Under the pieces are notes generated by a model, which was not told the DNA's origin, did not search any database, and worked only from the letters and a program-made list of their open reading frames with translations. Below are positions 4,500 to 31,805 of a DNA stretch of 64,000 bases, one piece after another. How positions within the stretch are numbered: position 1 is the stretch's first letter; the number at the start of each line of letters is the position of its first letter. Location: contig JBDRBF010000041.1 in the NCBI GenBank assembly GCA_043822925.1, forward strand, positions 1-64,000. The letters are read 5' to 3'. The position numbers and the translations under genes were made by a program. The stretch comes from a bacterium (GTDB lineage Bacteria; Babelota; Babeliae; Babelales; RVW-14).

Positions 4500-4504
4500 T
4501 TACT

Positions 4505-4592: not shown

Positions 4593-4612
4593 TTAATATT
4601 GGAGAACAAAAA

Positions 4613-5329: not shown

Positions 5330-5350
5330 TCGACTGAAACTTATTCCAGC

Positions 5351-5368
5351 CTAGGGTTGAAACCCTAG
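5351..5368. repeat. Short palindrome between convergent genes (REP-like or terminator)
   Basis: ctagggtt-ga-aaccctag; same family as the palindromes at 28019 and 28164. Confidence 0.5.
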
Positions 5369-5372
5369 ATTA

Positions 5373-7799: not shown

Positions 7800-7822
7800 T
7801 GCGCGTACCCCTCTATTACGTT

Positions 7823-8359: not shown

Positions 8360-8360
8360 A

Positions 8361-10034: not shown

Positions 10035-12868
10035 GGAACTGAACCCTCAGTTTTCACAGGGATTTCTGAAAAAAACTTTTTGAGACTTTCTCTTTTCTCC
10101 TGCTGCACAGGAACTTCTTGTTGCACATTTTCTAGTTTGGGTTGGGAAAAAAATTTTTTAAGCTGCTCACGCTTTGGACTTTCAGAAATAAACTGTTTCA
10201 GCTTTTCTTTCTTATCTATCTGCCCATCTTGTACACTTTGAACACTAGTTATAGAAGCCTGTGAAAGAACATTTTTTAATTGTTCTCTACGCTCATCTAA
10301 ATCAGTATCAACAACTGTTTGACCTGTATTATATATAGGCTCTTGCATAATAGGCTTTTGAGATAATTGCTTAAGTAATGGCGTTGTCCCCATTATTTCT
10401 TGTTTTTCAGGTGTTACTGGCGCCATAGGCTCTATTCTTGCTACTTTTTGCGCATCTGCCCCCGCAACAGAAACGGGACCAACAGGCATGTCTGCTTGAG
10501 TAAGTATTTTCTTATCTTGCACTGGCACCGTAATTCTTTCAGCTACTTCTTCTTTAAGCTCTTCGCGCTTTGTCTGAGATCTATAATACGGATCATTTTG
10601 CATGTCTACCGTTGTTGGCTGATAACGCGCATTGGCAAAATCAACAACTTTATGTGAATAATTTTCTGACTCAGCATCAAAGAACCAATTAAAAATTGGA
10701 TCCCGAGTCTTTCTCGTCTCTACACCATTTTCAATACCCTCTGTAACTTGATGCATTTTCATTTTGGTATACAATTCCATACCAGGCAACTGACGAGGCT
10801 TAATAATTGTTGGAGCCATAAAAACAAAAACATACGTTTTTGATATATCTCGTCTTTGTTTTTTAAATAACCACCCCAAAATTGGTATATCAGCCAAAAT
10901 TGGCGTTTTTGTATTTTCATCCGATACTTTTGTTTTAACAAAACCACCAAGAACCAAAACCTGCCCATCAGCAACTGTCACCTGCGTTGTAAGATTTTTT
11001 GTCGTTTTATTCCCAGTATCTTCACGAATAAAATCATCAATGGTAAGCACTATGTCCATTTTAATAATTCCATCAAGATTTATTTGAGGGGTCAATTTAA
11101 TGTTTGTATCTGCCTTAAGCGTAGTAAAACCTTTAGCTGTTGTGCTTGGATCAAGTTCCTGTGAAACACGAACCTCTTTACCAAATGATATTGTAGCTTC
11201 TTTCTTATTAGCTACCGTTAAAAAAGGCTTTGATAAAATAGTCGCATTCGTTTGAGTCTTAAGTGCCTGAAAAACTCCCCAAATATTAGCATTTTTTCCA
11301 AACGTTAATGTTGCAGCACCATGAGAAGCCGCAACTTGCCCAAGCATACGACCAAGTAAATTAAGCGGATTTGTATTATCCGGAGCAAAAGACGGACTTC
11401 CTGATATAGCTGCTGACTGAAAATTAATAGAATTTCCCAACTGTCCCTCTTTTTTATTACGCAGAGCTCCACCGATATCTTTTATATTCGATGAATCAAC
11501 CGACACAATAAGTGTTTCTATAGCAACTTGAGGCTGAGGTTTGTCCAAATCTCTAATTGTTTTTTTTAGAAGCTTCCAGTCTTGTTTATCTGTCGAAGAG
11601 ACAACAAGACGATTACCACTTTTATCTACCTTAAATTTCATCTGCTTAAAATATTTTACCCCACCGCGAATAGACCCATACTTTGCGGCCTCTGCACCCC
11701 CCTCACTCTCCGGAGCCGCAGTAACCTCCTGCAATATTTGAGCAATTTGAGTTGCATCGGCATACTGTAGTTCAAAAATATGTAATGGCGATTCTACAGC
11801 TTTAAGTTCTGTATCAATATGATTAACAATAAAATCTTCAATTTTTTTAATAGGCCCAGCTGTCCCAAGCATTACTAAAGAATTTGTACGCGGTATCGTG
11901 AAAATTTTAATACCTGCCGGGAAATACTCTAACCCGCCCTCTGCTGCGCCACCAAATAAACGAGCAAGCGCTCCACCTTCAGACTTTTTGGTCATCAAAC
12001 CCTCAAGAAGCTCTTTCACGTCAGTTGCATTTGCATTTTTAAGCCTAAGAACAACAACACTCTCTGACTGCCCAGACCGATCAAGCTCTTGTACTAATTT
12101 AACCGCAGATTTTATGTTAAGAGACTTATCTGTAATAATAAACCCGTTCACATCCGTTTGAGTTATTAACTGGTGCTTATCACTCAAAAGACTCTCAAGT
12201 AAAGTTGTGATTGACTCAGTCGGTAAATTTTGTAAGAAAAACACATAACGAATAGTTATGTCACTATCGGGAAGCGTTTCAGCCGGAACGTTAATATATG
12301 ATGGTAAGGGTTCTGTAAGTTTTTTATCTTTTGGAATAACTTTATAAACATCGCCAACTTGAACAATACTAAACCCAGCCATTTCTAGCACGGTTAAGAA
12401 AATTTTATACGCACCATCAAGCGTTAGGGGGTCGCGTATTGATAAAGAAATTTTTGCGCCTTCTAAAGCTTTATCTGGAATCAAATTAAATTTTTTCAGT
12501 TCTGCCATGTAGTTTACAAAATTTGATAATTCTGTATTTTCAAAATTCAAATAAATATCGCGCTCTTCTTTTACTTCTTGCTGACCAGTTTTTTTTATTT
12601 GATCTGAATCAGATTTTATTCGAGCATTAGATTTTAGACTTGCAGGCTGAAGAACTTCTAACTGCTTAGCCAAAACTTGATCTGACTTTTCTATTTTAGT
12701 TTGAGCCAATTGCGGCTGCACCTGAGCTGCAGAATCAACCTGAACTTGAGCTACAGTTATAGGCTGCTGCTGTATACTCTGAGCTGCTGGCATGGCACTT
12801 AACAATGGAAATAATCCACCAACAAAACATCCCACAAACAAGGCTCTCGTCTCGAACAAAGCCCTCAT
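10031..12868 (-). CDS. gspD: Type II secretion secretin GspD, copy 1, with long C-terminal extension
   Basis: IYLNFENTEL, LDKPQPQVAIE, LTPQIN, VADGQVLVLGG, KTPILADIPILGWLFK. Confidence 0.9.
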   Translation of the reverse strand: MRALFETRALFVGCFVGGLFPLLSAMPAAQSIQQQPITVAQVQVDSAAQVQPQLAQTKIEKSDQVLAKQLEVLQPASLKSNARIKSDSDQIKKTGQQEVKEERDIYLNFENTELSNFVNYMAELKKFNLIPDKALEGAKISLSIRDPLTLDGAYKIFLTVLEMAGFSIVQVGDVYKVIPKDKKLTEPLPSYINVPAETLPDSDITIRYVFFLQNLPTESITTLLESLLSDKHQLITQTDVNGFIITDKSLNIKSAVKLVQELDRSGQSESVVVLRLKNANATDVKELLEGLMTKKSEGGALARLFGGAAEGGLEYFPAGIKIFTIPRTNSLVMLGTAGPIKKIEDFIVNHIDTELKAVESPLHIFELQYADATQIAQILQEVTAAPESEGGAEAAKYGSIRGGVKYFKQMKFKVDKSGNRLVVSSTDKQDWKLLKKTIRDLDKPQPQVAIETLIVSVDSSNIKDIGGALRNKKEGQLGNSINFQSAAISGSPSFAPDNTNPLNLLGRMLGQVAASHGAATLTFGKNANIWGVFQALKTQTNATILSKPFLTVANKKEATISFGKEVRVSQELDPSTTAKGFTTLKADTNIKLTPQINLDGIIKMDIVLTIDDFIREDTGNKTTKNLTTQVTVADGQVLVLGGFVKTKVSDENTKTPILADIPILGWLFKKQRRDISKTYVFVFMAPTIIKPRQLPGMELYTKMKMHQVTEGIENGVETRKTRDPIFNWFFDAESENYSHKVVDFANARYQPTTVDMQNDPYYRSQTKREELKEEVAERITVPVQDKKILTQADMPVGPVSVAGADAQKVARIEPMAPVTPEKQEIMGTTPLLKQLSQKPIMQEPIYNTGQTVVDTDLDERREQLKNVLSQASITSVQSVQDGQIDKKEKLKQFISESPKREQLKKFFSQPKLENVQQEVPVQQEKRESLKKFFSEIPVKTEGSVP

Positions 12869-12898
12869 CGACTTTTCCTACCTATTTTTTTATACGGC

Positions 12899-14026
12899 CT
12901 ATCTAACACGCGAATCATGCATGCGCATCTTCAAATTATTTAATAATCTTTCTCGTATACGAGCTATCGCATCTTTTTGTTCTGTACTTGAATGCTGCTG
13001 CCTAAATTGTCTAATCATGTCTTCTCGTTTTTGCTGTCTACTTTGGTCAAAGACTTCCGGCTTCTTCTCTTCTGGCTTTCCACCGGTAAATATTTTTTGA
13101 GAAGCCTTACTTATCTTGGCAAATTCATACAATAAAGTTTCATCCTGGCCGCCTCGTTTGACGACTAAACTAAACTTATCACCAATCTTGCCATCTGCTA
13201 TAGTATCATAAATATGTAATCTGCTCTTTAAGTCCGCTGTAGGAAGCTTATTGACTGACAATAGTATATCATTTTTTTGAAGGCCCAAAGCGCCCCCAAT
13301 ATCTCCTTGATCAAGTAGCCCAACTTTTAATCCAATCGGCTTACCAGTCTGATACGCCGTACCTATTATTGCTGCGCGTTCAATAAAGCTACCCAGTCCA
13401 TCAATCTCGTCTTTAAAATTATCTGGATCTATTTGATATGTTCTATCTTCTATTCTTTTAACGATATACTTCCAACGCTCTTCTGGCTTAGAATTATCTT
13501 TAAGATCATCTTTTCTTAAATAAAAAATCTCTTGCTGACCATTACCCCGAAGCAACACAATTCTGTTACGTGCGATTTTAACAATTTGAGCATCTTTAAT
13601 TTTTTCACCCAAATGATATAAGCCTTCTTTTTTAGTTTCATCTTCTATCATGGCAACGTTTTGATTTTCATCAGCAGAAATTATAATCCCCTTAATAATT
13701 ACTGTAAGAGGCGCAATAAACGACTGTTTTTGTAATTCAGGAACGGGAACGATTTCTGCCGGCTTTGGTTGTGGTACAGGAGTCACAAGCTCTTTTTTAA
13801 CAAGCTCAACTTTTTCTGGTACATACGTATCAAAAAGATCTTCTTTGTATATTTTTTCCAAACTTACAGGAAAAACAGCTTCTTTTTTCTTTTCTAAATC
13901 AAGGCTCACTGTTTTTGGACGAAAAACGGGAATCTGCACTTGAACAAATTGGCCTGTTACAAATGCAACAACAAACATCATTAAAAGTGCACTGTTCAGC
14001 ATCCACAATTGTGGCTTCATAACCAC
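12899..14026 (-). CDS. gspC: Type II secretion protein GspC (HR + PDZ domains)
   Basis: N-terminal TM, HR-like GII..AMIED...IVKIARNRIVL, PDZ-like LGLQKNDILLSVN; directly upstream of gspD. Confidence 0.75.
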   Translation of the reverse strand: MVMKPQLWMLNSALLMMFVVAFVTGQFVQVQIPVFRPKTVSLDLEKKKEAVFPVSLEKIYKEDLFDTYVPEKVELVKKELVTPVPQPKPAEIVPVPELQKQSFIAPLTVIIKGIIISADENQNVAMIEDETKKEGLYHLGEKIKDAQIVKIARNRIVLLRGNGQQEIFYLRKDDLKDNSKPEERWKYIVKRIEDRTYQIDPDNFKDEIDGLGSFIERAAIIGTAYQTGKPIGLKVGLLDQGDIGGALGLQKNDILLSVNKLPTADLKSRLHIYDTIADGKIGDKFSLVVKRGGQDETLLYEFAKISKASQKIFTGGKPEEKKPEVFDQSRQQKREDMIRQFRQQHSSTEQKDAIARIRERLLNNLKMRMHDSRVR

Positions 14027-19617: not shown

Positions 19618-20937
19618 ATGATTTATAGAAAAAAAATTCAGGCACTTTTACTTACAGGATGTTTACTCAGCCTTTCAAGTCAATTACTTGCGAGTCATAA
19701 TACCAGTAAATATTCACTCTTTCTGGAGCGTCCAGACAATTACTCATACAGAAAAAAGCCATATCTACATGCTTCGCTATTTTATACATCAGCATCGACG
19801 GCGTTTCATCGCTATGGTGGCAACGCAGGTTTATATGAACTTTCAGGAAAATACGATTTACAAAACATTTTTGACAGCCTAAAAACCGCTCACGCAACAG
19901 ATGTAGCACTTAAGCCACAATTAGATCTCTGGGAGAGACAACTTGCTGGCTATGCAAATAAAACCGAATTTACAGCAGAAGGCAAATGCAAAGCAAGAGG
20001 CTTTGCACTTCAATACGATTGCGATCTTAAATGGAACAATCTTGTGGTTGGAGCATCTATTCCATTTATATCAATAAATACAACCAGTCGCCTTAATCCA
20101 TCAAATAAATCTTTGTCTGCAAGCGACCAACTAAATCTCAGTAAGATACGAAGAGAAATTCATGACACACTTGATCTTCGCGAAAATAACTGGGACAAAG
20201 GCGGGATTGGTGACGTAGACGTTTATCTCCGCTGGAATTATTTTTTAGATCATAAGCTTTTAATGCGCAGTATTAATCTCAATTTCCAATTTGGTTGCCT
20301 AGCCCCTACCGGCATCAGCCAAGACACCTCATACTTTTCATCTGTTCCTGTCATGGGCAATGGACATTGCGGACTTTATCTAGACTTTGTTCCCGAATTT
20401 GAACTTAAACAAAATTTAAAAGTCGGCTTCATGGTCGGTAACATTTATCAATTCAAAAACACAAAAATAATGCGCTTGCCTACGTATAAAGAACCTGCAA
20501 TTTTTAGCCCTATTGTTGGAGATGTTAGTATTGAGCCTGGCTACACACTTAAACTAGCTCCCTATGTGATTCTTGAAAATCTTACAAACGGTGTTCATTT
20601 TCAAGCCCGTTATTCTTATTTGCGCCACAGCACTGATTCATGGAAAGATGCTCGCTCGACCGACGAAAAAACAAGCACCCCAAGCTATTTAAATATGAAG
20701 CCAGACATTGCAAATAACATAACTCAGGAAAATATAAACGATAATATAGCAAGTAAGAAAAATTTAACAAAATGGCGCGCACACTACATCACGCTGCAAT
20801 TTTTATATAACTCAAAAGATGCATTACATAATCTTGTTTTTGATCCCAACGTTTATATTTCCTATGATCTTCCAATTGCTGGTCGCGGTATAAGTAAAAC
20901 ACATCAGATTACACTCGGTGCTGAATTACACTTTTAA
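19618..20937 (+). CDS. Putative outer-membrane beta-barrel protein
   Basis: Signal peptide, GGIGDV motif, alternating beta-strands, C-terminal ITLGAELHF (BamA-type beta signal). Confidence 0.55.
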   Translation: MIYRKKIQALLLTGCLLSLSSQLLASHNTSKYSLFLERPDNYSYRKKPYLHASLFYTSASTAFHRYGGNAGLYELSGKYDLQNIFDSLKTAHATDVALKPQLDLWERQLAGYANKTEFTAEGKCKARGFALQYDCDLKWNNLVVGASIPFISINTTSRLNPSNKSLSASDQLNLSKIRREIHDTLDLRENNWDKGGIGDVDVYLRWNYFLDHKLLMRSINLNFQFGCLAPTGISQDTSYFSSVPVMGNGHCGLYLDFVPEFELKQNLKVGFMVGNIYQFKNTKIMRLPTYKEPAIFSPIVGDVSIEPGYTLKLAPYVILENLTNGVHFQARYSYLRHSTDSWKDARSTDEKTSTPSYLNMKPDIANNITQENINDNIASKKNLTKWRAHYITLQFLYNSKDALHNLVFDPNVYISYDLPIAGRGISKTHQITLGAELHF

Positions 20938-22191: not shown

Positions 22192-22218
22192 CGTGAATAA
22201 CGTGAATAACGTGAATAA
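22192..22218 (+). repeat. 3 x 9-bp tandem repeat (cgtgaataa) next to the Shine-Dalgarno
   Basis: Exact copies at 22192, 22201 and 22210, followed by aaggag. Confidence 0.9.
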
Positions 22219-22233
22219 AAGGAGAATAGTACA

Positions 22234-23925
22234 ATGACCAGAAATCTTTGTCATCATTTTTACAAAATTCAAATCTTTTTATTCTTATCTCTTTTCTCTT
22301 CACCAGTAATCGCAAACATCTCTTTTCATAGCAAAAGTTCTGCCTGGATTGTAAGCGAGGGAGAAATTATTGTATCAGATACAACTCATCTTTATGGATG
22401 GAAAGATGCATCGGTAATAAAAGATAATGCTTATACCGGGAACAATTGGACTGGATACCCATCATCCCCCTGGAACTATGCAAATTTACCAAGTTTAGAC
22501 GTCATAAACAATAGTAATGCCATAAATTACTATGCACCAACTATTAGAAATAACTCCCGCTTATTAAGCCAGACAAGCAACGCACTTATAACAGATATTG
22601 GCAACTTGCGAACAACAAGTAATGCCCTCCTATATGGACTAAGAATTAATAGTAATGCTATCGTAACAAACGCTATTAATATCAAAACAAACAGTAACAG
22701 CATCGTAAAAAACAACATAGATATAAAATCGAACAGCAATGCCATTATTTCTCTGGCTGCATCTGGCATGGGAGTTCTCGCAACCCAAAATAGCAACGCC
22801 ATAAATTACTACGCACCAATAATTAGAAACGATTCAAGATTATTAAAACAAACAAGTGATGCGTTTATATATAATCTTAACACAAGCGGCGCCGAGGGAA
22901 TTAAAAACAATAGCAATGCAATAATAGTATTAGACAAGCTCACTAAACAAAACAGCAATGCTATAGTAAGTGGTGGCGGAGGAAGTGAAATAAACTATGA
23001 AGGCAACCTCACTATTGCTGGCCCAACCTATACATTGGCCCATAACCGATTTGCCAACCCAGTTTCTTCAAATATTTACTTCACTGGAAATACAACTTTT
23101 AATGGCAATAATAATTATATACAATTCAGCGATAGTCCTAGCTCTATTCACGTATCTCCTGGTGTAACTGTTATTTTCTCAAATACCATATTTAAAGATC
23201 TTACTGATACAGTATTTAACTTAAGTGCCGGAGCTCAAGTAATATTTGATACAGGAACCGTTATTGAAATAATGCGACCAACAACATTAAATCAAAACTG
23301 GATTTTCACAGGAGATTCTCTTATTTATGGTTACAATAATACACTCGATCTAGCAAATTCTAACATTCAAATATCAAGCAATAGCACATTAACAATACAC
23401 AGCCTAAATATAACTGGCCTCAAAAATAATAACTTATCGGCTACCAGCTCAAACGACCGAATTACGCTACAAAATGCTGCACTTATACTCTCAAACAACT
23501 TTAGCTATAGCACCGGCGCATTAAGATTCGAAAACGATGTTTTAATTACCGGTACAAATACATTTACCTACGCAACAGATCAAATATCAACTATAGCATC
23601 GCAATCACACGTAATTCTGGATACCGGAGTAACGTTTGAATATAACGCCCCTATCGCAAATAGAGACCTACTGACCATGACAGATCAAACATCACGCTTA
23701 ATCTTAAACGGCTGCACCCTATCTTCAACGACAACAGGCCTGCGTTTAACCAAAGGAACATTAGTTATTGAACACAAAAACAACCTATACAACACAGGCG
23801 CAACATCTTTATCAGAAGCTATTAACTTAGGTAACGGCACTCCAAATGGCGAACTGACGATTGAAATAAAACCAGGAGCATCAATAGATCTTAAATCGGG
23901 AATCTTAAATTATGAAAATGTATAA
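22234..23925 (+). CDS. Exported protein A: small head + SNA-repeat stalk + beta-rich C-terminal domain
   Basis: Signal peptide, NSNAI/TSNAL repeats, C-terminal LNGCTLSSTTTGLRLTKG motif shared with its neighbours. Confidence 0.75.
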   Translation: MTRNLCHHFYKIQIFLFLSLFSSPVIANISFHSKSSAWIVSEGEIIVSDTTHLYGWKDASVIKDNAYTGNNWTGYPSSPWNYANLPSLDVINNSNAINYYAPTIRNNSRLLSQTSNALITDIGNLRTTSNALLYGLRINSNAIVTNAINIKTNSNSIVKNNIDIKSNSNAIISLAASGMGVLATQNSNAINYYAPIIRNDSRLLKQTSDAFIYNLNTSGAEGIKNNSNAIIVLDKLTKQNSNAIVSGGGGSEINYEGNLTIAGPTYTLAHNRFANPVSSNIYFTGNTTFNGNNNYIQFSDSPSSIHVSPGVTVIFSNTIFKDLTDTVFNLSAGAQVIFDTGTVIEIMRPTTLNQNWIFTGDSLIYGYNNTLDLANSNIQISSNSTLTIHSLNITGLKNNNLSATSSNDRITLQNAALILSNNFSYSTGALRFENDVLITGTNTFTYATDQISTIASQSHVILDTGVTFEYNAPIANRDLLTMTDQTSRLILNGCTLSSTTTGLRLTKGTLVIEHKNNLYNTGATSLSEAINLGNGTPNGELTIEIKPGASIDLKSGILNYENV

Positions 23926-23947
23926 AAAATAAAAAAAACCTGGCTCC

Positions 23948-24005
23948 TGGATCCCTACTACACCCAGGTGGCTTGGAAGGCCAGACGAGTCCTGGATAAC
24001 AAGTA
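23948..24005. repeat. Composite REP-like element
   Basis: tggatc[cctactacacccaggtggcttggaaggccagac]gagtcctggataacaagta; resembles the 4505-4592 element. Confidence 0.55.
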
Positions 24006-24023
24006 AAAAAGAAAGAGAGAGTT

Positions 24024-26024
24024 ATGAAGAAAAATATGAGACTATTTTTATACCTGTTTTTTGCACTATTCTTTATGCAGCAAAAAACTCATGCCTCGTT
24101 CTTTAATCCATCCCCATACACTCTAGATTACGGAACAACAGCGTCAACCGCTCGCTGGAATGCAAATGGCACATATCTAGCCGTCGGAGGAACTAACTTT
24201 CCAACCGATCTCACTATATACGGTTTTGATGGCACATACGTAACACCAAAAGCAACAGAATCTTTTGGCAACGGAGCCTTTGCTGTCGATTGGTCACCAA
24301 ACGGACAATATCTGGCCATTGGTGGAGACTACTCGACCAATGCTCTTATTATTTATAAATGGGACGGAGTAGATACAACACTTAGCACATCAAAATATCA
24401 CGGCTCATATGTAACTGCTGTCGCATGGAACCCCGCTGGAAACGCTCTTGCCGTTGGTGGCAACTGGAACAACAACAATCTTGCACTTTATAATTGGGAT
24501 GGATATAACACGCTCTCGCTCACCACATCAAAATATTATGGCACACAGGTTAACGGCCTCGCTTGGAATCCAGCAGGAACTAAGCTAGCTGTTGCCGGTC
24601 AAAATCGTTACTGTGGACTAAGCCTCTACGACTGGAATGGCTCAACCCTTACGCTCACCACATCAAAATATCACGGAATTTCCGCAAATGCTCTTGCCTG
24701 GACAAGTACCGGAACGTATCTCGCTGTTGGTGGAAACTATAATACAAACAATGTTATTATCTATACTTTAAGCGGACCCTCATCACTCACACTCACAACA
24801 TCGATTTCTTTTGGAACAAATGCTAACACGCTTTCTTGGAGTTATGATGACCGCTATTTAACCGTCGGTGGAGACAATAGCTCTGCTGATTTGACAACCT
24901 ACGAATGGAACGGCTCAACACTCACACCAATACCAAATTCACAAGCAAGTTACGGCAACGGAGTCTATGGTGCCAGCTGGAGCCCCTACTCAGATTATCT
25001 GGCTGTCGCTGGAAATAACAGCTCAAACGACTTCACACTCTATACAAGCAATGGTTATTTAAATGGCACAAAAAATAACGTAACCCTCTCAAATCATTAC
25101 TTATTTACAGATGGCGGCTATGCAAACGGTCTTGTTAATTTTACTAATGGTTGCACCGTACTTCCTGGCAAAAAACTTAAACTTGCACTACTTACACCAT
25201 TTTCCGGTGGTCTAGATTTACGAGACACAGCAACCTTACAACTTGAAGACGATTTATATTTAGACGCAGACGTCACCCTCACAACTGGCGGCTATATTTA
25301 TGGGCAAGGACATGCAATCTATTTAGAAAATGATTTAACAATTCCAGATAACACCATCATGCACATCAGTAATGATACTATAATTGATGGAAATGGGCAT
25401 AAACTTAACTTAGGACACGAAAGTCAATTATTTATAGATTGGGGAGTAACGCTCACACTTAGAAATATGACATTCAAAAACACCGTTAACAATCAAGATA
25501 CTCCACCAGTAAGACTTAATGGAAAAACAAGCAAACTTGCTTTGGATAACATTCATCTTGAATTATCCAGTGACTTCTCATTTACCTACGGCCAACTCTT
25601 TATTCATAACGATGTTTTAGTTACCGGCACTTCAAAGTTCAATTATCTCTCATCACATCAAAGCTACATAGATACATGCAGTACTCTTTACTTTGACCTT
25701 GGCACTACCTTTTCTTTTGCCCCATATTTATCGACTAATAAAGATCTTATTTACATGAAAGATGCATCAGCGACACTATATCTTAATGGTACCACGCTTG
25801 CAATAACACACACTGGATTACGTCTAACCAGAGGCCGTTTATTAATAGATAATACAGTAACGTTCACCAGTCAATATTATGAAGGAAGTCACAAACAAGC
25901 ACCAAGCAACGGGCTTATTTTTGGCAACGCTATATTTAGCGACTCTATATACGATCTAGATGTGCACCTTTTGGGTGGAGCAAATATTGGCCAATACACG
26001 TTAGTAAAAGTTGACGAAATATAA
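24024..26024 (+). CDS. Exported protein B: 7-bladed WD40-like beta-propeller + beta-rich C-terminal domain
   Basis: Seven W-x-x-x-G-x-x-L-A-V-G-G type blades; IDGNGH; LAITHTGLRLTRG. Confidence 0.8.
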   Translation: MKKNMRLFLYLFFALFFMQQKTHASFFNPSPYTLDYGTTASTARWNANGTYLAVGGTNFPTDLTIYGFDGTYVTPKATESFGNGAFAVDWSPNGQYLAIGGDYSTNALIIYKWDGVDTTLSTSKYHGSYVTAVAWNPAGNALAVGGNWNNNNLALYNWDGYNTLSLTTSKYYGTQVNGLAWNPAGTKLAVAGQNRYCGLSLYDWNGSTLTLTTSKYHGISANALAWTSTGTYLAVGGNYNTNNVIIYTLSGPSSLTLTTSISFGTNANTLSWSYDDRYLTVGGDNSSADLTTYEWNGSTLTPIPNSQASYGNGVYGASWSPYSDYLAVAGNNSSNDFTLYTSNGYLNGTKNNVTLSNHYLFTDGGYANGLVNFTNGCTVLPGKKLKLALLTPFSGGLDLRDTATLQLEDDLYLDADVTLTTGGYIYGQGHAIYLENDLTIPDNTIMHISNDTIIDGNGHKLNLGHESQLFIDWGVTLTLRNMTFKNTVNNQDTPPVRLNGKTSKLALDNIHLELSSDFSFTYGQLFIHNDVLVTGTSKFNYLSSHQSYIDTCSTLYFDLGTTFSFAPYLSTNKDLIYMKDASATLYLNGTTLAITHTGLRLTRGRLLIDNTVTFTSQYYEGSHKQAPSNGLIFGNAIFSDSIYDLDVHLLGGANIGQYTLVKVDEI

Positions 26025-26103
26025 AAAATCTATGCACAAAGTTAAAAATAAAACCTTAAAGTTAACTTTAACCGGCACCTGAAAATAAAGGGAGAAGAGT
26101 AAA

Positions 26104-28014
26104 ATGGCCAGAAATATTAATAGCCGTTTTTATAGCACTCGAATTTTATTATTTCTATTTCTTTTTTTCTCAACAATAAATGCAAAAATAACTTTTCAGA
26201 ACAAAAATTCAGATTGGGTTATATGCGAAAACAATACGCTTTATTTAAACACAGCAAACACCTATGGATGGCAAGCGTCATCAATTACAAAAAACAATGG
26301 GTACACAGGCGCAGCTAATACATGGACCGGATACCCAGCAGCACCATGGACCGCCACAAACATACCAAGCTTAGATGTCATCAATAATAGTAACGCTATC
26401 AATTACAATACCCCCATTATCAGAACAAATAGCAACGCCATAAACTATTACGCCCCAATAATACGTAACAACTCATATCTTCTAAATCAAACAAGTAACG
26501 CTCTGGTCAAAAACACTCTTAATATCAGAACAAATAGTAACGCTCTGGTTAAAAACACTCTTGATATTAGAACCAACAGTAACGCAATACTCTACGGCGA
26601 CAGAACAAATAGCAACGCCATAAACTATTACACCCCAATAATACGTAACAACTCATATCTTCTGAACCAAACAAGTAACGCTCTGGTCAAAAACACTATC
26701 GATACCAGAACAAATAGTAACGCTCTGGTTAAAAACACTCTTGATATCAGAACAAATAGTAACGCTCTGGTTAAAAACACTCTTGATATTAGAACCAACA
26801 GTAACGCTCTGACGTACAATACCGATAACATCAAAAATAATAGTAATACTATCGTAGCGACTAATAGACTCACCAAACAAAATAGCAGCGCCATTATTAA
26901 AAATACGGCTGATATTTCTGCCATACCGAGCAATACAGTCGTCGTCGGGACAAGTAACGCGATGGTTTATTATGCGCCTATGATCAGAAACAACTCATAT
27001 CTTCTGAACCAAACAAGTAACGCTCTGGTCAAAAACACTCTTAATATCAGAACCAACAGTAACGCAATACTCTACGGCGACAAAACAAATAGCAACGCCA
27101 TAAACTATTACGCACCAATAATACGCAATAACTCATATCTCTTAAAACAAACGAGTAACTCCATAGCCAACCCACTTATAAAAACAAGCAACCATCTAAG
27201 TACAGGAGCCCTCATCCTAACCAGCGATTTACTGCTCACGGCAAACTGCACCGTAGATCCCACCTCTTGCAACATCTATGGCAATGGCCACACGATTTAC
27301 TTAGGCGGAGATTTAGTCCTTCCCGACGATTATATAATGCTAATTGGCAGCGACACCATTATCGATGGTAATGGACATTCATTAATCTTAGGGAAAAGAA
27401 GTGAAATCGCTCCTGAATATACCCTCACTCTTACACTCAGGAATCTCACGCTCAAAAATATACTTAACCCACTACCTGACGCGACTCCTATTTATTTCGA
27501 CGCTTCCAATTGCAACCTCGCGCTTGATAACGTCACTATGGCGCTAACCGATGACTTCCCTTTTGACAATTACAATAATGGCGCAAAACTATTCATTCAC
27601 AATGACGTCATTTTCACCGGAACATCTAAGTTTATCTACCAATCCGATAAACCAGCATACATAGATGGCAAAAGTACTTTCTATTTTGATAACAACACTA
27701 CATTTTCTTTTGCTCCTCTCTCGACCAATAAAGATCTTATTTACATGAAAGATAAAACATCAACGCTCTATCTTAATAACGCCACACTTGCAATAACACA
27801 CACCGGGCTGAGACTAACCAAAGGCAACCTGTTACTGGAAAACAATGTAACTTTTACCAGCCAACGCTACGAAGGATCCCATAAACAAGCGCTCTCAAAT
27901 TCATTTGTTTTTGGTAACGCAACATTAGGTGAAAATTACGACTTAAACGTACAAATATTAAACAACGCGAAACTTAATGTAAAAGGCATGATTAAGAATA
28001 ATAACATTAACTAG
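26104..28014 (+). CDS. Exported protein C: A-type head + long SNA-repeat stalk + B-type C-terminal domain
   Basis: N-terminus homologous to A (WTGYP..PW...N.PSLDVINNSNAINY); C-terminus close to B (STNKDLIYMKD...YEGSHKQA). Confidence 0.8.
   Translation: MARNINSRFYSTRILLFLFLFFSTINAKITFQNKNSDWVICENNTLYLNTANTYGWQASSITKNNGYTGAANTWTGYPAAPWTATNIPSLDVINNSNAINYNTPIIRTNSNAINYYAPIIRNNSYLLNQTSNALVKNTLNIRTNSNALVKNTLDIRTNSNAILYGDRTNSNAINYYTPIIRNNSYLLNQTSNALVKNTIDTRTNSNALVKNTLDIRTNSNALVKNTLDIRTNSNALTYNTDNIKNNSNTIVATNRLTKQNSSAIIKNTADISAIPSNTVVVGTSNAMVYYAPMIRNNSYLLNQTSNALVKNTLNIRTNSNAILYGDKTNSNAINYYAPIIRNNSYLLKQTSNSIANPLIKTSNHLSTGALILTSDLLLTANCTVDPTSCNIYGNGHTIYLGGDLVLPDDYIMLIGSDTIIDGNGHSLILGKRSEIAPEYTLTLTLRNLTLKNILNPLPDATPIYFDASNCNLALDNVTMALTDDFPFDNYNNGAKLFIHNDVIFTGTSKFIYQSDKPAYIDGKSTFYFDNNTTFSFAPLSTNKDLIYMKDKTSTLYLNNATLAITHTGLRLTKGNLLLENNVTFTSQRYEGSHKQALSNSFVFGNATLGENYDLNVQILNNAKLNVKGMIKNNNIN
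26385..27165 (+). repeat. Intragenic tandem coding repeats (42-bp units and ~180-bp blocks)
   Basis: RTNSNALVKNTLDI units; block starting 26422 recurs at 26602 and, in part, near 27000-27150. Confidence 0.9.
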
Positions 28015-28018
28015 AAAA

Positions 28019-28181
28019 CCGGGGTTAAAACCCCGGCCTAACAAGAGCTTCGTGCTACCGCACGAGAAAGCTTCGATGAACATGAAAACCGATAAATGTA
28101 AAATTCCTAAACCCTTACAATTAAAGGCGAGATCATCATGCAGAGCCTGAAATTTGCAATAGCCTGGGGTTTTAACCCCAG
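28019..28181. repeat. Inverted pair of REP-like palindromes (REPIN-like doublet)
   Basis: ccggggttaaaaccccgg (28019-28036) and ctggggttttaaccccag (28164-28181) have reverse-complementary cores; extra hairpin tcgtgc-tacc-gcacga at 28050-28065. Confidence 0.65.
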
Positions 28182-30219
28182 ACTGAAAAAAAAACTATTA
28201 CTTCTGTTCCTGTTTTTTACTCTATTTTTTATAACACAAAAAATAGAAGCTTCTTTCTTTGATCCTTCTCCATTCACTCAAGATTATGGAGATGGCATTT
28301 TGCACGCCTACGCGACCCAATGGAACCCAGCCGGAACACACCTGGCCGTTGGTGGCATAAATTATCCAAACGATGTAACGATATACGAATGGGATGGCCA
28401 GTATCTCGAGACAACAAATAGTATCAATTTTGGCGCAGGCGCTTTTGCACTGAGCTGGTCACCAAACGGGCAATATTTAGCCGTTGGCGGCGACCATAAT
28501 TACAATTCACTTATTATTTATAAATGGGACGGCGTATCGCTCACGCTTACGACATCAAAATATCACGGCACACAAGTTAACGCTGTATCCTGGAACCCGG
28601 CTGGCGACACGCTCGCAGTCGGCGGCGTGTGGGGCAATAACCCGCTTGTTATGTATAGTTGGGATGGCTTAAATTCGCTCACGCTCACGACGTCAAAATA
28701 TCACGGCACGCAAGTTAATACGCTTGCCTGGCACCCAGACGGAACTAAACTGGCCGTGGGGGGAATTTATGGAACCCGCGACGTCATACTCTATGGCTGG
28801 AGCAACCCAACACTGACGCCTATAACATCTCTTGACCATGGGTCTGAAACCAACGCACTTGACTGGAGCTCAACGGGTTCTTTTTTGGCTGTCGGCGGCG
28901 CCAACACGCCAAACGACATTGGGATCTATATGCTCAGCGGCTCTACGTTAATACAAAAAACAACTGCAACTTTCGGAACAAAAGCAAAAACACTCGCTTT
29001 TAGTTTTGACGACACGATACTTGCTGTCGGCGGCATTAATCCCGGCTCTGATTTGTTAGTATATCAAACATCTATCGTTTCTGCTTACCCAGGCTTCGCG
29101 TACCTCAACCCAGTGAGCAGTTCACAAACAAGTTATGGCAACGGTGTTTATAGTGTTGCCTGGACCCCATACTCAGATTATCTGGCTGTCGCTGGCGATA
29201 ATGGCTCAAGCGATTTAACCATCTACAAAAATCACAACTACTTAAATGGCACTAAAAATAATATTACCCTCACAGACAAGTACGTATTTAGTGGTGATGG
29301 CGTCGGCTTTGTAATCGGTTCTGTTACATTCAAAAACGGCTGCGACATGGGAAACACCTGGATAACAATGGCCCTTACCGAACCATTTTCTGGAGAACTT
29401 GCAAATGCTAGTGAGCTCATACTAGAAAACGATTTATATCTCAATTCAAACACTACCATAGCCTCAGTAGAACTCGGGTTTTACGGTAACGGCCACACAA
29501 TTCATTTGGGCGGAGATTTAATCATCCCGGATGCTTCAACATTCTACATCGATAACGACACAGCCATTGACGGGAATGGACACTCGTTAATTTTGGGCAA
29601 CCAGAGTAACCTTAATGTAGGCAACACGGTCACGCTCACACTCAGAAATCTAACACTCAAAAACACGGTTAACACACAAGCTCTTCCCCCTATCGTTGCG
29701 TCTTCAAGTACCGCCAAAATCGCCCTCGATAACGTCAAGCTCGCGCTTACCGATGATTTCTATTTCCCCACCGGCCAGCTCTTTATCCACAATGACGTTA
29801 TGTTTACCGGAACATCGAAGTTTATCTACAAATCACCATATCAAAGCTATATTACCAAAAATGCAACGCTCTACTTCGGCCCACACACAATATTTAAGTA
29901 CAATCCAAACTCAACAAATAATAATTTAATTGCTATGCAAGATGCTTCGTCAAGCCTGTATCTAGACGGCTGCACGCTACAACTTACACACACAGGGCTG
30001 CGCTTATCAAAAGGACAAATATACCTGGAAAATAGTGTCACATTCACCAGCCCATATTCAGAAATAAACCCATCTGATGCATCAACAAGTTATCAGTCAG
30101 CATCTACTGGCTTAATTTTAGGCAATTCTATATTGGGACCAGATTATAACTTAAATATAGATGTTTTGGGTGGAGCGAATATTAATCAGCATTGTTTTGT
30201 AACATTTGATGAGGCATAG
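28138..30219 (+). CDS. Exported protein D: 7-bladed WD40-like propeller + beta-rich C-terminal domain
   Basis: Paralog of B (ASFF.PSP.T.DYG, LTTSKYHGTQVN, YSDYLAVAG, LTHTGLRLSKG); start codon uncertain. Confidence 0.8.
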   Translation: MQSLKFAIAWGFNPRLKKKLLLLFLFFTLFFITQKIEASFFDPSPFTQDYGDGILHAYATQWNPAGTHLAVGGINYPNDVTIYEWDGQYLETTNSINFGAGAFALSWSPNGQYLAVGGDHNYNSLIIYKWDGVSLTLTTSKYHGTQVNAVSWNPAGDTLAVGGVWGNNPLVMYSWDGLNSLTLTTSKYHGTQVNTLAWHPDGTKLAVGGIYGTRDVILYGWSNPTLTPITSLDHGSETNALDWSSTGSFLAVGGANTPNDIGIYMLSGSTLIQKTTATFGTKAKTLAFSFDDTILAVGGINPGSDLLVYQTSIVSAYPGFAYLNPVSSSQTSYGNGVYSVAWTPYSDYLAVAGDNGSSDLTIYKNHNYLNGTKNNITLTDKYVFSGDGVGFVIGSVTFKNGCDMGNTWITMALTEPFSGELANASELILENDLYLNSNTTIASVELGFYGNGHTIHLGGDLIIPDASTFYIDNDTAIDGNGHSLILGNQSNLNVGNTVTLTLRNLTLKNTVNTQALPPIVASSSTAKIALDNVKLALTDDFYFPTGQLFIHNDVMFTGTSKFIYKSPYQSYITKNATLYFGPHTIFKYNPNSTNNNLIAMQDASSSLYLDGCTLQLTHTGLRLSKGQIYLENSVTFTSPYSEINPSDASTSYQSASTGLILGNSILGPDYNLNIDVLGGANINQHCFVTFDEA

Positions 30220-30266: not shown

Positions 30267-31805
30267 ATCGGGGAGGAGAAGCTCGCGCAAGCGGGCTTCG
30301 TCCTCCCACACCACCGTACGTACTCATCGTATACGGCGGTTTCTTCTAACTTTTTTTTCACAAAGATTCGAAAATCTCACAAATACTTATAAACCCGTTC
30401 ATTCTCCACCATTCAACACCCATAGCTTTATGTGCTTGTGGGATAAGAGCTAATCGCCACCATCCATTTCCAGATGTTGCCGCCATCCAGGCTCTCGCCA
30501 GTCTAATGCCGCGTTGTATCAACATTGTTGCAATTGTCTTTGCTCTCTTTAATTGTTTTAGTCGATAACAGCGAAGTTTATGCCGAATCCATCCATCAAG
30601 TTCTTTCAATGTGCTTTCGGATTCTGCATACCTAAAGTATCACATCCATCCAGGCAAAATAGTGTTGATTTCTCGAATCACCTCTTCCAAACTCTTTCCA
30701 CGATTTCTCTTTGTTGCCGCTCGCATTTTATCTTTGAATCGCTCGATACTTTGTTGCGCGATTCTTAAGATGCCTCTACGATCAATACGATAGCCAAGAA
30801 ACTTCCGAGCCCCTACCGGGAGCCACCGTGCTTTTCTTCTGGTTGATTTTCAGCCTGAGCTTGGTTTCTAGAAATTCTCTAATTGATTGCATTACTCGTT
30901 CTCCTGCTCTTTCTGATTGCACATAGATATTACAATCATCTGCGTAGCGACAAAATTTGTGTCCTCTTCTTTCTAGCTCCTTATTACCCGAGACATGAGA
31001 ATATCGTGATTTACCCGATCAAAGAATTTCGCTAGATCAATATCAACGACCCATAGTCGATCCTCACGCACATATTCTTGTGCCTGTTTTATCGCTTGAT
31101 GGGCACTTCTTCCAGGCCTAAATCCGTAGCTTGAATTTGAAAAAATATTGTTCGAATATTGGAGAGAGCGCTTGAAGAAGCGCTTGTTGAACGAGTCTAT
31201 CAATGACCGTCGGAATACCCAAGTCTCTTTGACCACCTCCTGGTTTTGGTATGCTTACACGTTTTACCGGTTGCACTTTATACCTATCGCCCAAAAGAGA
31301 GTCTACTAATTCTTGTTCATTCTCAACGTACCATTGCTTCAGTGTATTAACGGTCATTCCATCAACGCCAGCGGCGCCTTTGTTTGCCATAACACGCTGC
31401 AGAGCCTGCCTCAAGTTATCCCTTTGGCAGACTACCTCCATTTTTTTTCCGCTACTACGGCTTCTGCTAACTTCTCTGCAACATCTCCATATTGTTGCCA
31501 ATATAGCCGCTTAGTTTTACTCAGCTATTTGCAAAAATCTCCCGGGGTAATGCACACTTCCTTCACATCGGCTCCACTGGATTTACTACCACGATATACG
31601 AGTGACTATATGGCTTCTTCGTCTATAGCCGAATTACCTATCGCGTAGGCCTTATATCCAGTTTCTGTTCGTTGGATCCATGTTTTCGTCGTCAGCTTCC
31701 TTCAGATTTTACCTCACGGTGAACACCATTGCCTAGACGTAGAGTTCCGGTCACTCGGTCTGTGGGAGACTTTCACTCCTGGAAAGTGCGCCATGCCCGG
31801 CACAC
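30267..31805 (-). mobile_element. Group IIC intron (degenerate)
   Basis: 5' end GTGTGCCGGGCATGG at 31805, just downstream of a terminator hairpin; domain V AACCGCCGTATACG...CGTACGGTGGT (CGC triad); 3' end ...CCCGAT at 30267; RT remnants inside. Confidence 0.9.
30358..31501 (-). pseudogene. ltrA: Group II intron reverse transcriptase/maturase pseudogene
   Basis: NKGAAGVDG, IPKPGG.R.LGIPTVIDR, SYGFRPGRSAH, VDIDLAKFFD, RYADD (YADD at 30935-30946). Frameshifts near 31140 and 30818, deletion of the PQG region near 30985, in-frame TGA at 30640-30642. Confidence 0.92.

What the first reader, a model, noticed from the sequence alone, without database searches (positions are those of the whole stretch)
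22234..30219. Alternating array of modular exported proteins: interchangeable stalk or propeller N-modules on a shared C-terminal domain
Seen: four co-oriented signal-peptide genes in A-B-A'-B' order. A and C carry a homologous small head plus SNA repeats; B and D carry 7-blade propellers. All four end in a related ~250-aa beta-rich domain (NDV..TGT..F.Y...M.D....L.L....L..T.TGLRL..G). C joins an A-type N-terminus to a C-terminus much closer to B (STNKDLIYMKD...VTFTSQ.YEGSHKQA), which points to domain shuffling. None ends in an autotransporter barrel or YadA anchor. Inference: an undescribed surface adhesin/fibre system in which the common C-domain is a polymerisation, anchoring or secretion-targeting module (possibly for the nearby T2SS-like machine) and the N-modules diversify.
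Basis: partly seen in the sequence, partly recalled or inferred. Interest (0 to 1): 0.75.

Follow-up and report, generated by a model that had tools for sequence, protein, structure and literature searches.

The report
Modular secreted beta-helix proteins of Babeliales
Four neighbouring genes of a protist-dependent bacterium encode exported proteins that share a beta-helix domain of an unnamed, much-expanded family, joined either to a WD40 propeller or to a predicted three-stranded stalk, and probably serve in host contact.

Summary
Four co-oriented genes (A 22234-23925, B 24024-26024, C 26104-28014, D 28138-30219) start with signal-peptide-like segments and end in one homologous ~280-aa domain. 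B and D carry seven-repeat WD40 propellers. A and C carry a homologous head plus Asn-rich repeats.

The shared domain models with high confidence (pLDDT 91) as a right-handed parallel beta-helix. Its nearest solved fold is the L. reuteri SRRP adhesin, followed by a continuum of tailspikes, lyases and autotransporter passengers. No Pfam family reaches its cut-off.

The genome is a 1.5-Mb Babeliales (Dependentiae) assembly with 19 ORFs carrying this domain. A public library holds 2,510 representative proteins, some with many units.

Shuffling is supported. The A and C heads are sisters (100), but their helix domains fall in different clades (AU p 0.001).

Three things are new:
- In most relatives the propeller is inserted in a loop near the end of the helix. 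Only this genome's clade has it at the N-terminus.
- The repeats of C are predicted to form a parallel trimeric coiled coil with Asn at position d (ipSAE 0.73, controls 0.00), as in trimeric autotransporter stalks, but without an anchor.
- Nearness to secretins is not conserved (3 of 10 loci).

The reading as an anchoring or targeting module is not supported. Function is inferred.

The parts
22234..23925 (+). Gene A (563 aa): signal-peptide-like N-terminus, head, Asn-rich repeats, 'A-type' beta-helix domain
   Evidence: ORF; no Pfam hit at E<=1 or <=10; hydrophobic N-terminus; helix domain found by the family HMM
22315..22506 (+). A head module (aa 28-91)
   Evidence: Head HMM E 2.8e-18; sister of C's head with SH-aLRT 100. 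Fold unknown.
22507..22983 (+). A Asn-rich (S-N-A) repeat region (aa ~92-250), stalk by analogy with C
   Evidence: 8 motif matches at aa 92-239. Not itself folded as a trimer; the stalk reading is inferred from C.
23122..23925 (+). A beta-helix domain plus tail (aa 297-563), divergent subtype
   Evidence: 28-29% identity to B, C and D. Lies in a starred clade of 21 rows, all head/repeat or plain-helix proteins (95*).
24024..26024 (+). Gene B (666 aa): signal peptide, N-terminal WD40 propeller, beta-helix domain
24111..25058 (+). B WD40 propeller (aa ~30-345), seven repeats
   Evidence: PF00400 55 bits against cut-off 27. 41.6% identical over 308 aa to the inserted propeller of relative P0007.
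25164..26021 (+). B beta-helix domain plus tail (aa 381-666)
   Evidence: AF2 model m2bc524f5b35b: pLDDT 91.3, pTM 0.90, all-beta. VIA-align best match 5nxk_A: Z 16.8, rmsd 4.3, 235 aa aligned. PF20585 24.0 bits, under its 24.3 cut-off.
26104..28014 (+). Gene C (636 aa): signal peptide, head, long repeat stalk, B-like beta-helix (chimeric module combination)
26185..26367 (+). C head module (aa 28-88)
   Evidence: Head HMM E 3.6e-22. None of these residues appears in the confident trimer interface, which starts at aa 88-89.
26368..27162 (+). C repeat stalk (aa 89-353): predicted parallel, in-register three-stranded coiled coil with I/L at a and Asn at d
   Evidence: complex prediction, 3 copies of aa 28-300: ipSAE 0.73/0.71/0.74, best control 0.00, pLDDT 77-78. 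Interface residues fall on L/I and N+T/S every 7 residues. Best PDB sequence match is the SadA stalk fragment 2wpq, E 0.056, not significant. DNA tandem repeats at 26421-26846.
27163..28011 (+). C beta-helix domain plus tail (aa 354-636)
   Evidence: 54% identical to B, 29% to A. pLDDT mostly 75-97 over aa 360-636 in the full-length model.
28138..30219 (+). Gene D (693 aa): signal peptide, N-terminal WD40 propeller, beta-helix domain
28270..29262 (+). D WD40 propeller (aa ~45-375), seven repeats
   Evidence: PF00400 63.6 bits; 7 motifs; 56% identical to B's propeller
29350..30216 (+). D beta-helix domain plus tail (aa 405-693)
   Evidence: 52% identical to B; family HMM 304 bits

Best explanation
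The four genes are one local array of a large, unnamed protein family that I found only in Babeliales (Dependentiae/TM6), bacteria that depend on protist hosts.

Each protein is exported by a Sec-type signal peptide. The constant part is a ~240-aa right-handed parallel beta-helix closed by a ~42-aa tail. Variable parts are attached to it.

The usual attachment in relatives is a seven-bladed WD40 propeller inserted in the loop between helix and tail. In this genome's lineage the same propeller was moved to the N-terminus (B, D). In other members the N-terminus is a ~60-aa head followed by heptad repeats with Ile/Leu at position a and Asn at position d. These repeats most likely form a parallel trimeric coiled-coil stalk, so A and C would be three-chain fibres carrying three beta-helices at the far end.

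C arose by joining an A-like head and stalk to a B-like helix.

I infer that these are extracellular or surface proteins that bind host or prey-cell surface structures during attachment, uptake or life in the vacuole. In this reading the beta-helix is the binding scaffold, and the propeller or stalk sets reach and partner. Tandem duplication, repeat slippage and module exchange diversify the set, much as in the polymorphic membrane proteins of chlamydiae. Export beyond the periplasm would then have to use the type II machinery, the only secretion system reported for a cultured member of the phylum.

Shown: homology, fold prediction, architectures, incongruent trees, family size and distribution.
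Predicted: the trimeric stalk.
Inferred: export, location, binding function.
For: Taxon and family.
- Named homologues are labelled Candidatus Babeliales or Dependentiae, apart from some labelled only 'bacterium' and one labelled Asgard archaeon.
- The family HMM hits 19 own-genome ORFs, about 12,008 aa or 2.4% of the assembly.
- A helix-only profile finds 67 of 201 sampled genomes of the phylum and 23 of 23 in the window's own family.
- One closed relative genome holds 38 domain matches.
- The same profile finds 2,510 representatives at E<=1e-3 and 1,482 at <=1e-30 among 1.84 billion proteins.

Fold.
- AF2 pLDDT 91.3.
- VIA-align gives 140 chains at Z>=8, all those listed being right-handed beta-helices. 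The top match is the SRRP adhesin at Z 16.8.
- Atlas look-alikes are autotransporter passenger types, but all feature scores are below 0.9, so they are leads only.

No enzyme signature.
- Across 10 deep paralogues the invariant positions are G, L, Y, I and one D.
- No lyase or hydrolase Pfam hit.

Propeller insertion and relocation.
- Seen directly in the sequences.
- 37 of 85 rows are helix-with-insert. N-terminal propellers occur only in 4 rows, all from this genome.
- B's propeller aligns full-length with the inserted propellers.

Shuffling.

Trimer: and the weak 2wpq match. The N@d layer of trimeric autotransporter stalks is described in PMC4786415 (passages read).

Secretion context.
- Two gspD copies occur in all TM6 genomes studied (PMC4776705, passages).
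- No type V barrel was found in this genome.

Hydrophobic N-termini: 53 of 70 family proteins that start with M pass a simple hydropathy test.
Against: - There is no experimental or expression evidence. Export, location and binding are all inferred.
- No signal-peptide predictor was available. 17 of 70 family proteins failed my crude test.
- The beta-helix fold is shared equally with polysaccharide lyases, hydrolases and tailspike depolymerases at Z 13-15.6, close to the top adhesin match. Without model coordinates I could not look for a groove or catalytic cluster.
- Within the B-type subfamily D75, R100, H148 and D150 are nearly invariant. That could mark an active or binding site.
- The AF2 monomer gave the head and repeats pLDDT <50 and no helix.
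- The trimer pass may reflect likeness to solved autotransporter stalks. It used three copies and my own alignment, which lies outside the tool's calibration.
- No anchor to the cell was identified.
- The family was not found in 134 of 201 sampled genomes of the phylum, including families f2 0/9, f6 0/13 and f9 0/28. It is therefore not essential to the lifestyle.
Confidence: 0.55

Rival explanations
1. The proteins are secreted polysaccharide-degrading enzymes (pectate-lyase-like, polygalacturonase-like or depolymerase-like). They would be exported by the type II system to digest host or prey cell-surface glycans. The propeller or stalk would act as a carbohydrate- or protein-binding accessory.
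For: - The fold matches many lyases and hydrolases at Z 12-15: xylogalacturonase 4c2l 14.9, alginate lyases 14.3-14.6, chondroitinase B 14.1 and tailspike depolymerases 14-15.6.
- There is a sub-threshold hit to PF20585, the 'pectate lyase-like adhesive domain'.
- From my own knowledge, no call: beta-helix pectate lyases are classic type II substrates in Dickeya.
- D75, R100, H148 and D150 are nearly invariant in the B-type subfamily.
Against: - No enzyme family reaches threshold in Pfam or NCBIfam.
- The polar residues conserved in the B-type are replaced in A-type paralogues (D75 to Y/R, R100 to H/Q/E, H148 to E/Q/V). Family-wide invariants are Gly, hydrophobic residues, one Tyr and one Asp.
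- The best structural match is a non-enzymatic adhesin.
- Dozens of paralogues per genome, and proteins with 3 to 10 tandem units, are more typical of adhesins than of enzymes.
Confidence: 0.15
2. The proteins are effectors delivered into the host cell. There the WD40 propeller mimics eukaryotic scaffold proteins and interferes with host pathways. The beta-helix would be a carrier or a second binding surface.
For: - WD40 proteins of TM6 bacteria have been proposed as secreted host-interaction proteins (PMC4378268 and PMC4776705, passages).
- Signal-peptide-like N-termini.
- The top Pfam propeller models are eukaryotic ones: THOC3, CDC20, WDHD1.
Against: - A and C have no propeller yet share the helix. 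So the constant part is the beta-helix, a fold typical of extracellular proteins.
- The propeller repeats are a family-specific type shared by inserted and N-terminal forms, not a recent eukaryotic acquisition. All eukaryotic whole-propeller models score far under their cut-offs, e.g. 89 against 305 bits.
- No route across a host membrane is known for this phylum.
Confidence: 0.15
3. The proteins are periplasmic or cell-envelope structural proteins (for example a surface layer or envelope scaffold) with no direct role in host contact.
For: - They have a signal peptide but no recognisable outer-membrane anchor or export tag.
- The family occupies a high share of the genome.
Against: - The family is patchy in the phylum: 67 of 201 genomes, and absent from whole families among those searched. 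That is unlike a core envelope component.
- Copy number and architecture vary widely between close relatives.
Confidence: 0.1
4. The genes are remnants of a prophage: tailspike or tail-fibre genes (N-terminal adaptor, trimeric stalk, beta-helix).
For: - The head/stalk/beta-helix layout of A and C resembles tailspikes.
- Tailspikes are among the best fold matches: Fri1 gp49 Z 15.6, CBA120 TSP2 14.3.
Against: - PHROGs gives nothing for C and D, an insignificant hit for A, and only a WD40-type hit of unknown function for B.
- BFVD gives no match at E<=0.001.
- The neighbours are housekeeping genes: mreB, tpiA, secG, pnp, rph.
- The proteins carry signal peptides.
- The family is present in 23 of 23 genomes of the window's own family, with up to 38 domain matches per genome.
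Confidence: 0.03

Closest known systems
Binding region of the serine-rich repeat protein (SRRP) of Limosilactobacillus reuteri (PDB 5nxk/5ny0), and Pfam PF20585 'putative pectate lyase-like adhesive domain'
   Same: Best structural match of the shared domain: Z 16.8, rmsd 4.3 A, 235 residues. It is also the best Foldseek row, E 0.02. A non-enzymatic right-handed beta-helix used for adhesion. PF20585 is the only Pfam model that touches the domain.
   Different: 13% identity. PF20585 is under its cut-off in B (24.0 against 24.3) and D (20.0), and absent in A and C. SRRPs are Gram-positive, wall-anchored and exported by the accessory Sec system (my own knowledge). Here there is a plain signal peptide and no anchor.
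Trimeric autotransporter adhesins (YadA/SadA type), in particular their N@d coiled-coil stalks
   Same: The repeats of C are predicted as a parallel in-register trimeric coiled coil with Asn at d and T/S at e. The best PDB sequence match is the SadA stalk fragment 2wpq. The N@d layer is described in PMC4786415.
   Different: There is no YadA anchor in the proteins or in the genome and no Hep_Hag head repeats. Polarity is reversed: the globular beta-helix lies at the C-terminus, where a TAA has its membrane anchor. The 2wpq match is not significant (E 0.056).
Chlamydial polymorphic membrane proteins (Pmp) and other classical autotransporter passengers (pertactin, Ag43, TibA, UpaB, rickettsial rOmpB)
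   Same: Large paralogous families of beta-helix proteins in host-dependent bacteria. Fold matches to UpaB (Z 13.9) and TibA (Z 12.2). Atlas leads to rOmpB, pertactin, PATR and Chlam_PMP clusters.
   Different: No C-terminal beta-barrel. No GGA[ILV] motif, 0 in all four proteins. PF02415 was not hit. A different way out of the cell must apply.
Phage tailspike proteins (P22/HK620/CBA120 type)
   Same: N-terminal small module, trimer, then right-handed beta-helix. Z 13-15.6.
   Different: Signal peptides, no phage context, no PHROG membership. Chromosomal multigene family across a bacterial order.
Polysaccharide lyases and GH28 hydrolases of the pectate-lyase fold
   Same: Same fold at Z 12-15.
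   Different: No sequence family membership. No family-wide conserved catalytic set.

Membership tests
WD40 beta-propeller (PF00400) - for B and D | Repeats scoring above the Pfam gathering cut-off; seven blades | tested here: met
   55.0 and 63.6 bits against a cut-off of 27. Seven motifs about 45 aa apart. The propeller itself was not folded.
Right-handed parallel beta-helix fold (pectate-lyase-like superfamily) | Stack of three-stranded coils forming a right-handed solenoid | tested here: met
   AF2 pLDDT 91.3, all-beta with short regular strands. 140 chains at Z>=8; the 50 listed are right-handed beta-helix proteins.
PF20585 Pectate_lyase_5 (putative adhesive domain) | Score at or above the gathering cut-off of 24.3 bits | tested here: not met
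   B 24.0 bits, D 20.0 bits, A and C no hit.
Polysaccharide lyase / GH28 enzymes | Conserved catalytic residues (acid/base, Ca2+ ligands) lining a groove | tested here: inconclusive
   No enzyme family hit. Invariant positions in 10 paralogues are G76, L97, G155, Y161, I169, D200, L205, G218, L221 and G224. Coordinates of the model were not available, so a groove could not be inspected.
Trimeric autotransporter adhesin | C-terminal YadA-type membrane anchor (PF03895) | tested here: not met
   No hit in A-D or five relatives at E<=10. No hit in the genome, which is 92.5% complete; the control rang in E. coli.
Trimeric autotransporter adhesin | Trimeric coiled-coil stalk, often with N@d layers | tested here: met
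   By prediction only: ipSAE 0.73 against 0.00 for the controls, with a/d contacts from aa 89 to 300, Asn at d.
Classical autotransporter / chlamydial Pmp | C-terminal 12-stranded barrel (PF03797); GGA[ILV] and FxxN repeats | tested here: not met
   No PF03797 in the proteins or in the genome; the control rang in 3 genomes. GGA[ILV] count is 0 in all four, FxxN 2-4.
Two-partner secretion (TpsA/TpsB) | N-terminal TPS domain in the passenger; ShlB-type transporter in the genome | tested here: inconclusive
   No TPS-domain hit in Pfam. PF03865 found nothing in the genome, but the control rang nowhere.
T9SS cargo | C-terminal Por_Secre_tail domain | tested here: inconclusive
   No hit in the proteins. 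The genome search was negative, but its control rang nowhere.
Type II secretion substrate | Export depends on the GspD machine; no sequence signature is known | not testable with these tools
   Only the context can be examined. There are two secretins in the window and one on contig C34. Proximity is not conserved.

The most novel reading that the evidence does not exclude
Babeliales build surface fibres of a kind not described before. The fibres would be three-chain stalks with Asn-layered coiled coils, as in trimeric autotransporters, but made without any type V anchor. They would be held at or near the N-terminus, tipped by three beta-helix domains, and exported through the only secretion route the phylum has (type II). 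The propeller-bearing paralogues would be alternative tips of the same system. The propeller has 'hopped' between a loop of the helix and the N-terminus, so the family would be a toolkit for attaching to different protist hosts.
Probability: 0.25. Interest if true: 0.75.

Novelty: new variant of a known kind. Interest (0 to 1): 0.55.

Why it matters
Dependentiae are widespread, almost uncultured parasites of protists, and how they recognise and enter hosts is unknown. This family takes up about 2.4% of a 1.5-Mb genome. It reaches dozens of copies in relatives and has no name in the domain libraries.

It is therefore a concrete candidate set for host-range determinants, and a useful marker for annotating these genomes.

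It also offers three clean examples of protein evolution:
- a propeller moved from a loop insertion to the N-terminus;
- a recombinant (C) between two subfamilies;
- an autotransporter-style N@d stalk used outside type V secretion.

Tried and rejected
- Foldseek against the PDB and against BFVD gave no match at E<=0.001. The weak rows were all beta-helices. VIA-align was needed to see the fold.
- The AF2 monomer of full-length C left the head and repeats below pLDDT 50, so the head fold remains unknown.
- Pfam at E<=10 on seven repeat-bearing proteins gave only scattered chance-level hits.
- The first phylum search used an alignment that included the propeller (146 of 201 genomes). It is confounded by WD40-only hits. 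I replaced it with the helix-only profile (67 of 201).
- The promoter and terminator scan gave counts equal to the shuffles (24 against 25.2; 6 against 6.7), so it says nothing about operon structure.
- Secretin proximity looked suggestive in this genome: both secretin loci lie within about 10 kb of family genes. One locus in a closed relative does too. It failed in four further genomes, 0 of 6 loci, and the intervening genes are unrelated housekeeping genes.
- A duplicated A-B cassette is rejected by the helix tree.
- Prophage origin is rejected.
- The search of earlier findings returned nothing for this place.
- Two literature queries failed on term format and were rephrased.
- Papers' supplementary tables, which could list expanded families in TM6 genomes, could not be seen.

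Full report
WHAT IS THERE. Four + strand ORFs lie at the stated coordinates:
- A, 22234-23925, 563 aa
- B, 24024-26024, 666 aa
- C, 26104-28014, 636 aa
- D, 28138-30219, 693 aa

Each begins with 2-5 basic residues, a strongly hydrophobic 12-residue stretch and a small-x-small site, with no Cys lipobox. This is read from the sequence; no signal-peptide predictor was available.

B and D pass the Pfam WD40 cut-off (55.0 and 63.6 bits against 27). Each shows seven W-x-P-x-G-x-x-L-A-V-G-G motifs about 45 residues apart.

A and C have no Pfam or NCBIfam family at all. They share a head that is 52% identical over 73 columns. After the head come Asn-rich repeats, 8 and 16 motif copies. In C these repeats are still visible as 42-bp and 180-bp DNA tandem repeats.

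All four end in one homologous domain. Identities are B-C 54%, B-D 52%, C-D 49%, and A to the others 28-29%.

THE ORGANISM AND THE FAMILY. The window is contig C41 of a 1.52-Mb assembly of 86 contigs, 92.5% complete. Homologues of the shared domain that carry a source name are mostly labelled Candidatus Babeliales or Dependentiae. Some are labelled only 'bacterium' and one 'Asgard group archaeon'.

A profile of the domain finds 19 ORFs in this genome, about 12,008 aa or 2.4% of the assembly. They lie mostly in tandem pairs on contigs C41, C28, C24, C22, C8, C34, C16, C76 and C6.

A helix-only profile (alignment A4, ten own-genome domains) gives these counts:
- 67 of 201 sampled genomes of the phylum match, and 23 of 23 in the window's own family. 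The distribution is patchy elsewhere: f12 8/9, f3 18/66, f2 0/9, f6 0/13, f9 0/28.
- One closed relative genome holds 38 domain matches.
- Among 1.84 billion representative proteins, 2,510 match at E<=1e-3 and 1,482 at <=1e-30.

The highest-scoring representatives are giant proteins. HMMER reports up to 22 matched stretches in one 4,562-aa protein. By my own count of long core matches the listed giants hold 3 to 10 units.

I found no description of this family in full-text searches:
- Dependentiae + WD40
- Babeliales + beta-helix
- Dependentiae + adhesin
- Chromulinavorax
- Babela massiliensis + WD40
- WD40 + beta-helix + signal peptide + intracellular bacteria

Supplements could not be seen.

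THE SHARED DOMAIN. Folded with 40 aligned relatives, B's domain (aa 381-666) gives pLDDT 91.3 and pTM 0.90, all beta.

Foldseek found nothing at E<=0.001 in the PDB or in BFVD, though all weak rows were beta-helices. The full VIA-align scan gave 140 chains at Z>=8:
- L. reuteri SRRP adhesin 5nxk_A: Z 16.8, rmsd 4.3 A, 235 residues, 13% identity
- Fri1 tailspike: Z 15.6
- Fap2: Z 14.9
- then galacturonases, alginate lyases, PfbA and UpaB

The match list is a smooth continuum. It shows the fold, a right-handed parallel beta-helix, and not a function.

Across ten deep paralogues the invariant positions are Gly, Leu, Ile, one Tyr and one Asp. The polar residues that are nearly invariant in the B-type subfamily (D75, R100, H148, D150) are replaced in A-type members. 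That argues for a scaffold or binding domain rather than one conserved active site. Without model coordinates I could not inspect a groove, so the enzyme alternative stays open.

In most relatives the order is signal peptide, beta-helix, WD40 propeller, then a conserved ~42-aa tail (sequences). The propeller therefore sits as an insertion in the loop between the body of the helix and its last coils. In B that loop is only a few residues long and is the least confident part of the model (pLDDT about 69).

The 85 family rows with a near-complete helix divide as follows:

| Architecture | Rows |
|---|---|
| helix with insert | 37 |
| head + repeats + helix | 18 |
| repeats + helix | 10 |
| helix alone | 8 |
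| head + repeats + helix with insert | 4 |
| head + helix, with insert | 2 |
| head + helix, without insert | 2 |
| N-terminal propeller + helix | 3 |
| N-terminal propeller + helix with insert | 1 |

The four rows with an N-terminal propeller all come from this genome. This sample is the top of two searches, not a census.

B's N-terminal propeller aligns over its full length with the inserted propellers of relatives, for example 41.6% over 308 aa with P0007. So it is the same module moved to a new place.

One own-genome paralogue on C24 (1,064 aa) has both an N-terminal and an inserted propeller. A plausible path, by inference only, runs as follows:
1. Two tandem units fuse.
2. The first helix is lost.
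3. The insert is lost.

This architecture shows that the shared domain is not a C-terminal tag.

SHUFFLING.
- In the helix tree (85 rows, 233 columns) A falls in a starred clade of 21 rows made of head/repeat and plain-helix proteins (SH-aLRT 95).
- C sits inside an own-genome clade with B, D and the C28 and C24 paralogues (support 91). That clade is nested in the propeller-associated clade of 49 rows (support 90).
- In the head tree (31 rows, 80 columns) A and C are sisters with support 100 on a long branch.
- Forcing the A and C helices together costs 104.2 log-likelihood units, AU p 0.00098.

At 50-57% identity the event is old, and no DNA breakpoint can be expected.

The A-B-A'-B' order is not a duplicated cassette, because B's closest helix is on contig C28 and A's helix is remote from C's. 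I looked at five loci in relatives, picked because they looked informative. Two show a head/repeat gene beside a propeller gene, one shows five head/repeat or helix-only genes in a row, and one shows four propeller genes in a row.

THE REPEATS. Read in register, the repeats of C are unbroken heptads with Ile/Leu at a, Asn at d and Thr/Ser at e.
- The AF2 monomer left this part below pLDDT 50 and without helices.
- Three copies of aa 28-300 gave ipSAE 0.73, 0.71 and 0.74 against 0.00 for three controls, with pLDDT 77-78 and at least 74% shared contacts between runs.
- The confident contacts run from residue 88-89 to 300 in a 3-4 spacing and are in register, for example 222 with 222. They fall on L/I and on N with T/S.

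The tool's verdict is that this supports binding but does not show it. It also warns that its calibration used two copies and its own alignments, and that likeness to solved complexes can give a pass.

Such complexes exist. The best PDB sequence match, although not significant (E 0.056), is 2wpq, a SadA stalk fragment. The N@d layer of trimeric autotransporter stalks is described in PMC4786415 (passages).

I therefore read A and C as probable three-chain fibres. Roughly 210-260 residues of coiled coil would span some 30-40 nm (my estimate from 0.15 nm per residue), with three beta-helices at the far end. A was not itself tested.

SECRETION AND ANCHORING.
- No autotransporter barrel or YadA anchor exists in the four proteins, or in the assembly as far as it is complete.
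- Searches for ShlB and the T9SS tail were negative, but their controls rang nowhere.
- The window holds two GspD-like secretins, PilM and a GspC-like gene at 5.4-14.0 kb on the other strand. A third secretin lies on C34 about 6.4 kb from two family genes.

That looked like a link, but it does not hold up:
- In a closed relative only 1 of 38 domain matches lies within 10 kb of a secretin, and the genes in between are not those of the window.
- In four more genomes 0 of 6 secretin loci have a family gene nearby.
- Overall 3 of 10 loci do.

Gene order therefore gives no support. The only argument for type II export is by exclusion. It is the only secretion system reported in B. massiliensis (PMC4378268, passages), and two gspD copies are universal in the TM6 genomes studied (PMC4776705, passages).

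VERDICT. The array is a real, well-supported member of a large, unnamed, Babeliales-restricted (as far as seen) family of exported modular beta-helix proteins. The fold and each module are of known kinds. The combination is new in three ways:
- an autotransporter-like beta-helix and an N@d stalk without any type V anchor;
- a propeller that occupies either a loop of the helix or the N-terminus;
- demonstrable module exchange.

The most likely role is binding of host-cell surfaces by secreted or surface-exposed proteins. This is an inference from fold neighbours, family expansion and the parasitic lifestyle, not from any functional test.

Noticed in passing
window 31118-31723 (- strand): Group II intron RNA domains D1-D4 (RF02001, 125.9 bits, E 3.8e-26) at 31552-31723. 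Directly after it, at 31118-31501, is a 127-aa ORF whose sequence reads like the N-terminus of an intron reverse transcriptase; Pfam gave no hit at E<=0.001. No long ORF follows down to 30219, so the intron looks truncated or decayed. G+C is raised (0.42-0.45) over 28-32 kb.
   Followed up: partly
window 19618-20937 (+): A 439-aa exported protein with no Pfam hit, ending in ...GAELHF like an outer-membrane beta-barrel. Atlas structure matches (TM 0.66-0.73) reach clusters with PF13557 Phenol_MetA_deg-type barrels. It is separated from gene A by mreB. No evidence links it to the family.
   Followed up: partly
window 22192-22218: A perfect 9-bp tandem repeat, CGTGAATAA x3, ends 16 bp before the start codon of gene A. 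Possibly a regulatory or slippage-prone element.
   Followed up: no
window 5373-14026 (-) and L034 (G000:C34) 3323-6068 (-): This genome has three secretins: two GspD-like genes flanking pilM in the window, and a third, shorter one (570 aa) with GspC-like and PilO-like genes on contig C34. Three relatives of the same family also have three; two more distant ones have two.
   Followed up: partly
G000 contigs C16:3-1433 and C76:5080-6564: Two nearly identical family members (tree branches 0.02-0.05), both at contig ends. They have a helix of a very divergent subtype and a long extra C-terminal region. They could be a recent duplicate or one locus assembled twice.
   Followed up: no
G000 contigs C24:39795-41327 and C22:1-396: A propeller+helix gene runs off the end of C24 at helix position 122, and a helix+tail fragment starts C22 at position 155. 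They are probably one gene split by an assembly gap, which would make a tandem pair with the 1,064-aa double-propeller paralogue on C24.
   Followed up: no
proteins P0094, P0095, P0132 (public collections): Giant relatives of 3,366 and 4,562 aa with 8-10 long helix units by my count (22 matched stretches in P0095 by HMMER). A 2,263-aa protein repeats the whole head-helix-propeller-tail unit three times in one frame. These may be true polyproteins or fused gene calls.
   Followed up: partly
G167:C8:106808-108853 and G071:C6:69360-70001: Family matches in relatives with 1-2 in-frame TAG codons. These may be pseudogenes or sequencing errors; not examined.
   Followed up: no
window 24156-24599 (B aa 45-192): B's propeller matches phrog_19311 (unknown function, 1,023-position profile) at E 3.7e-15, while D matches nothing in PHROGs. 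This is probably a generic WD40 likeness.
   Followed up: no
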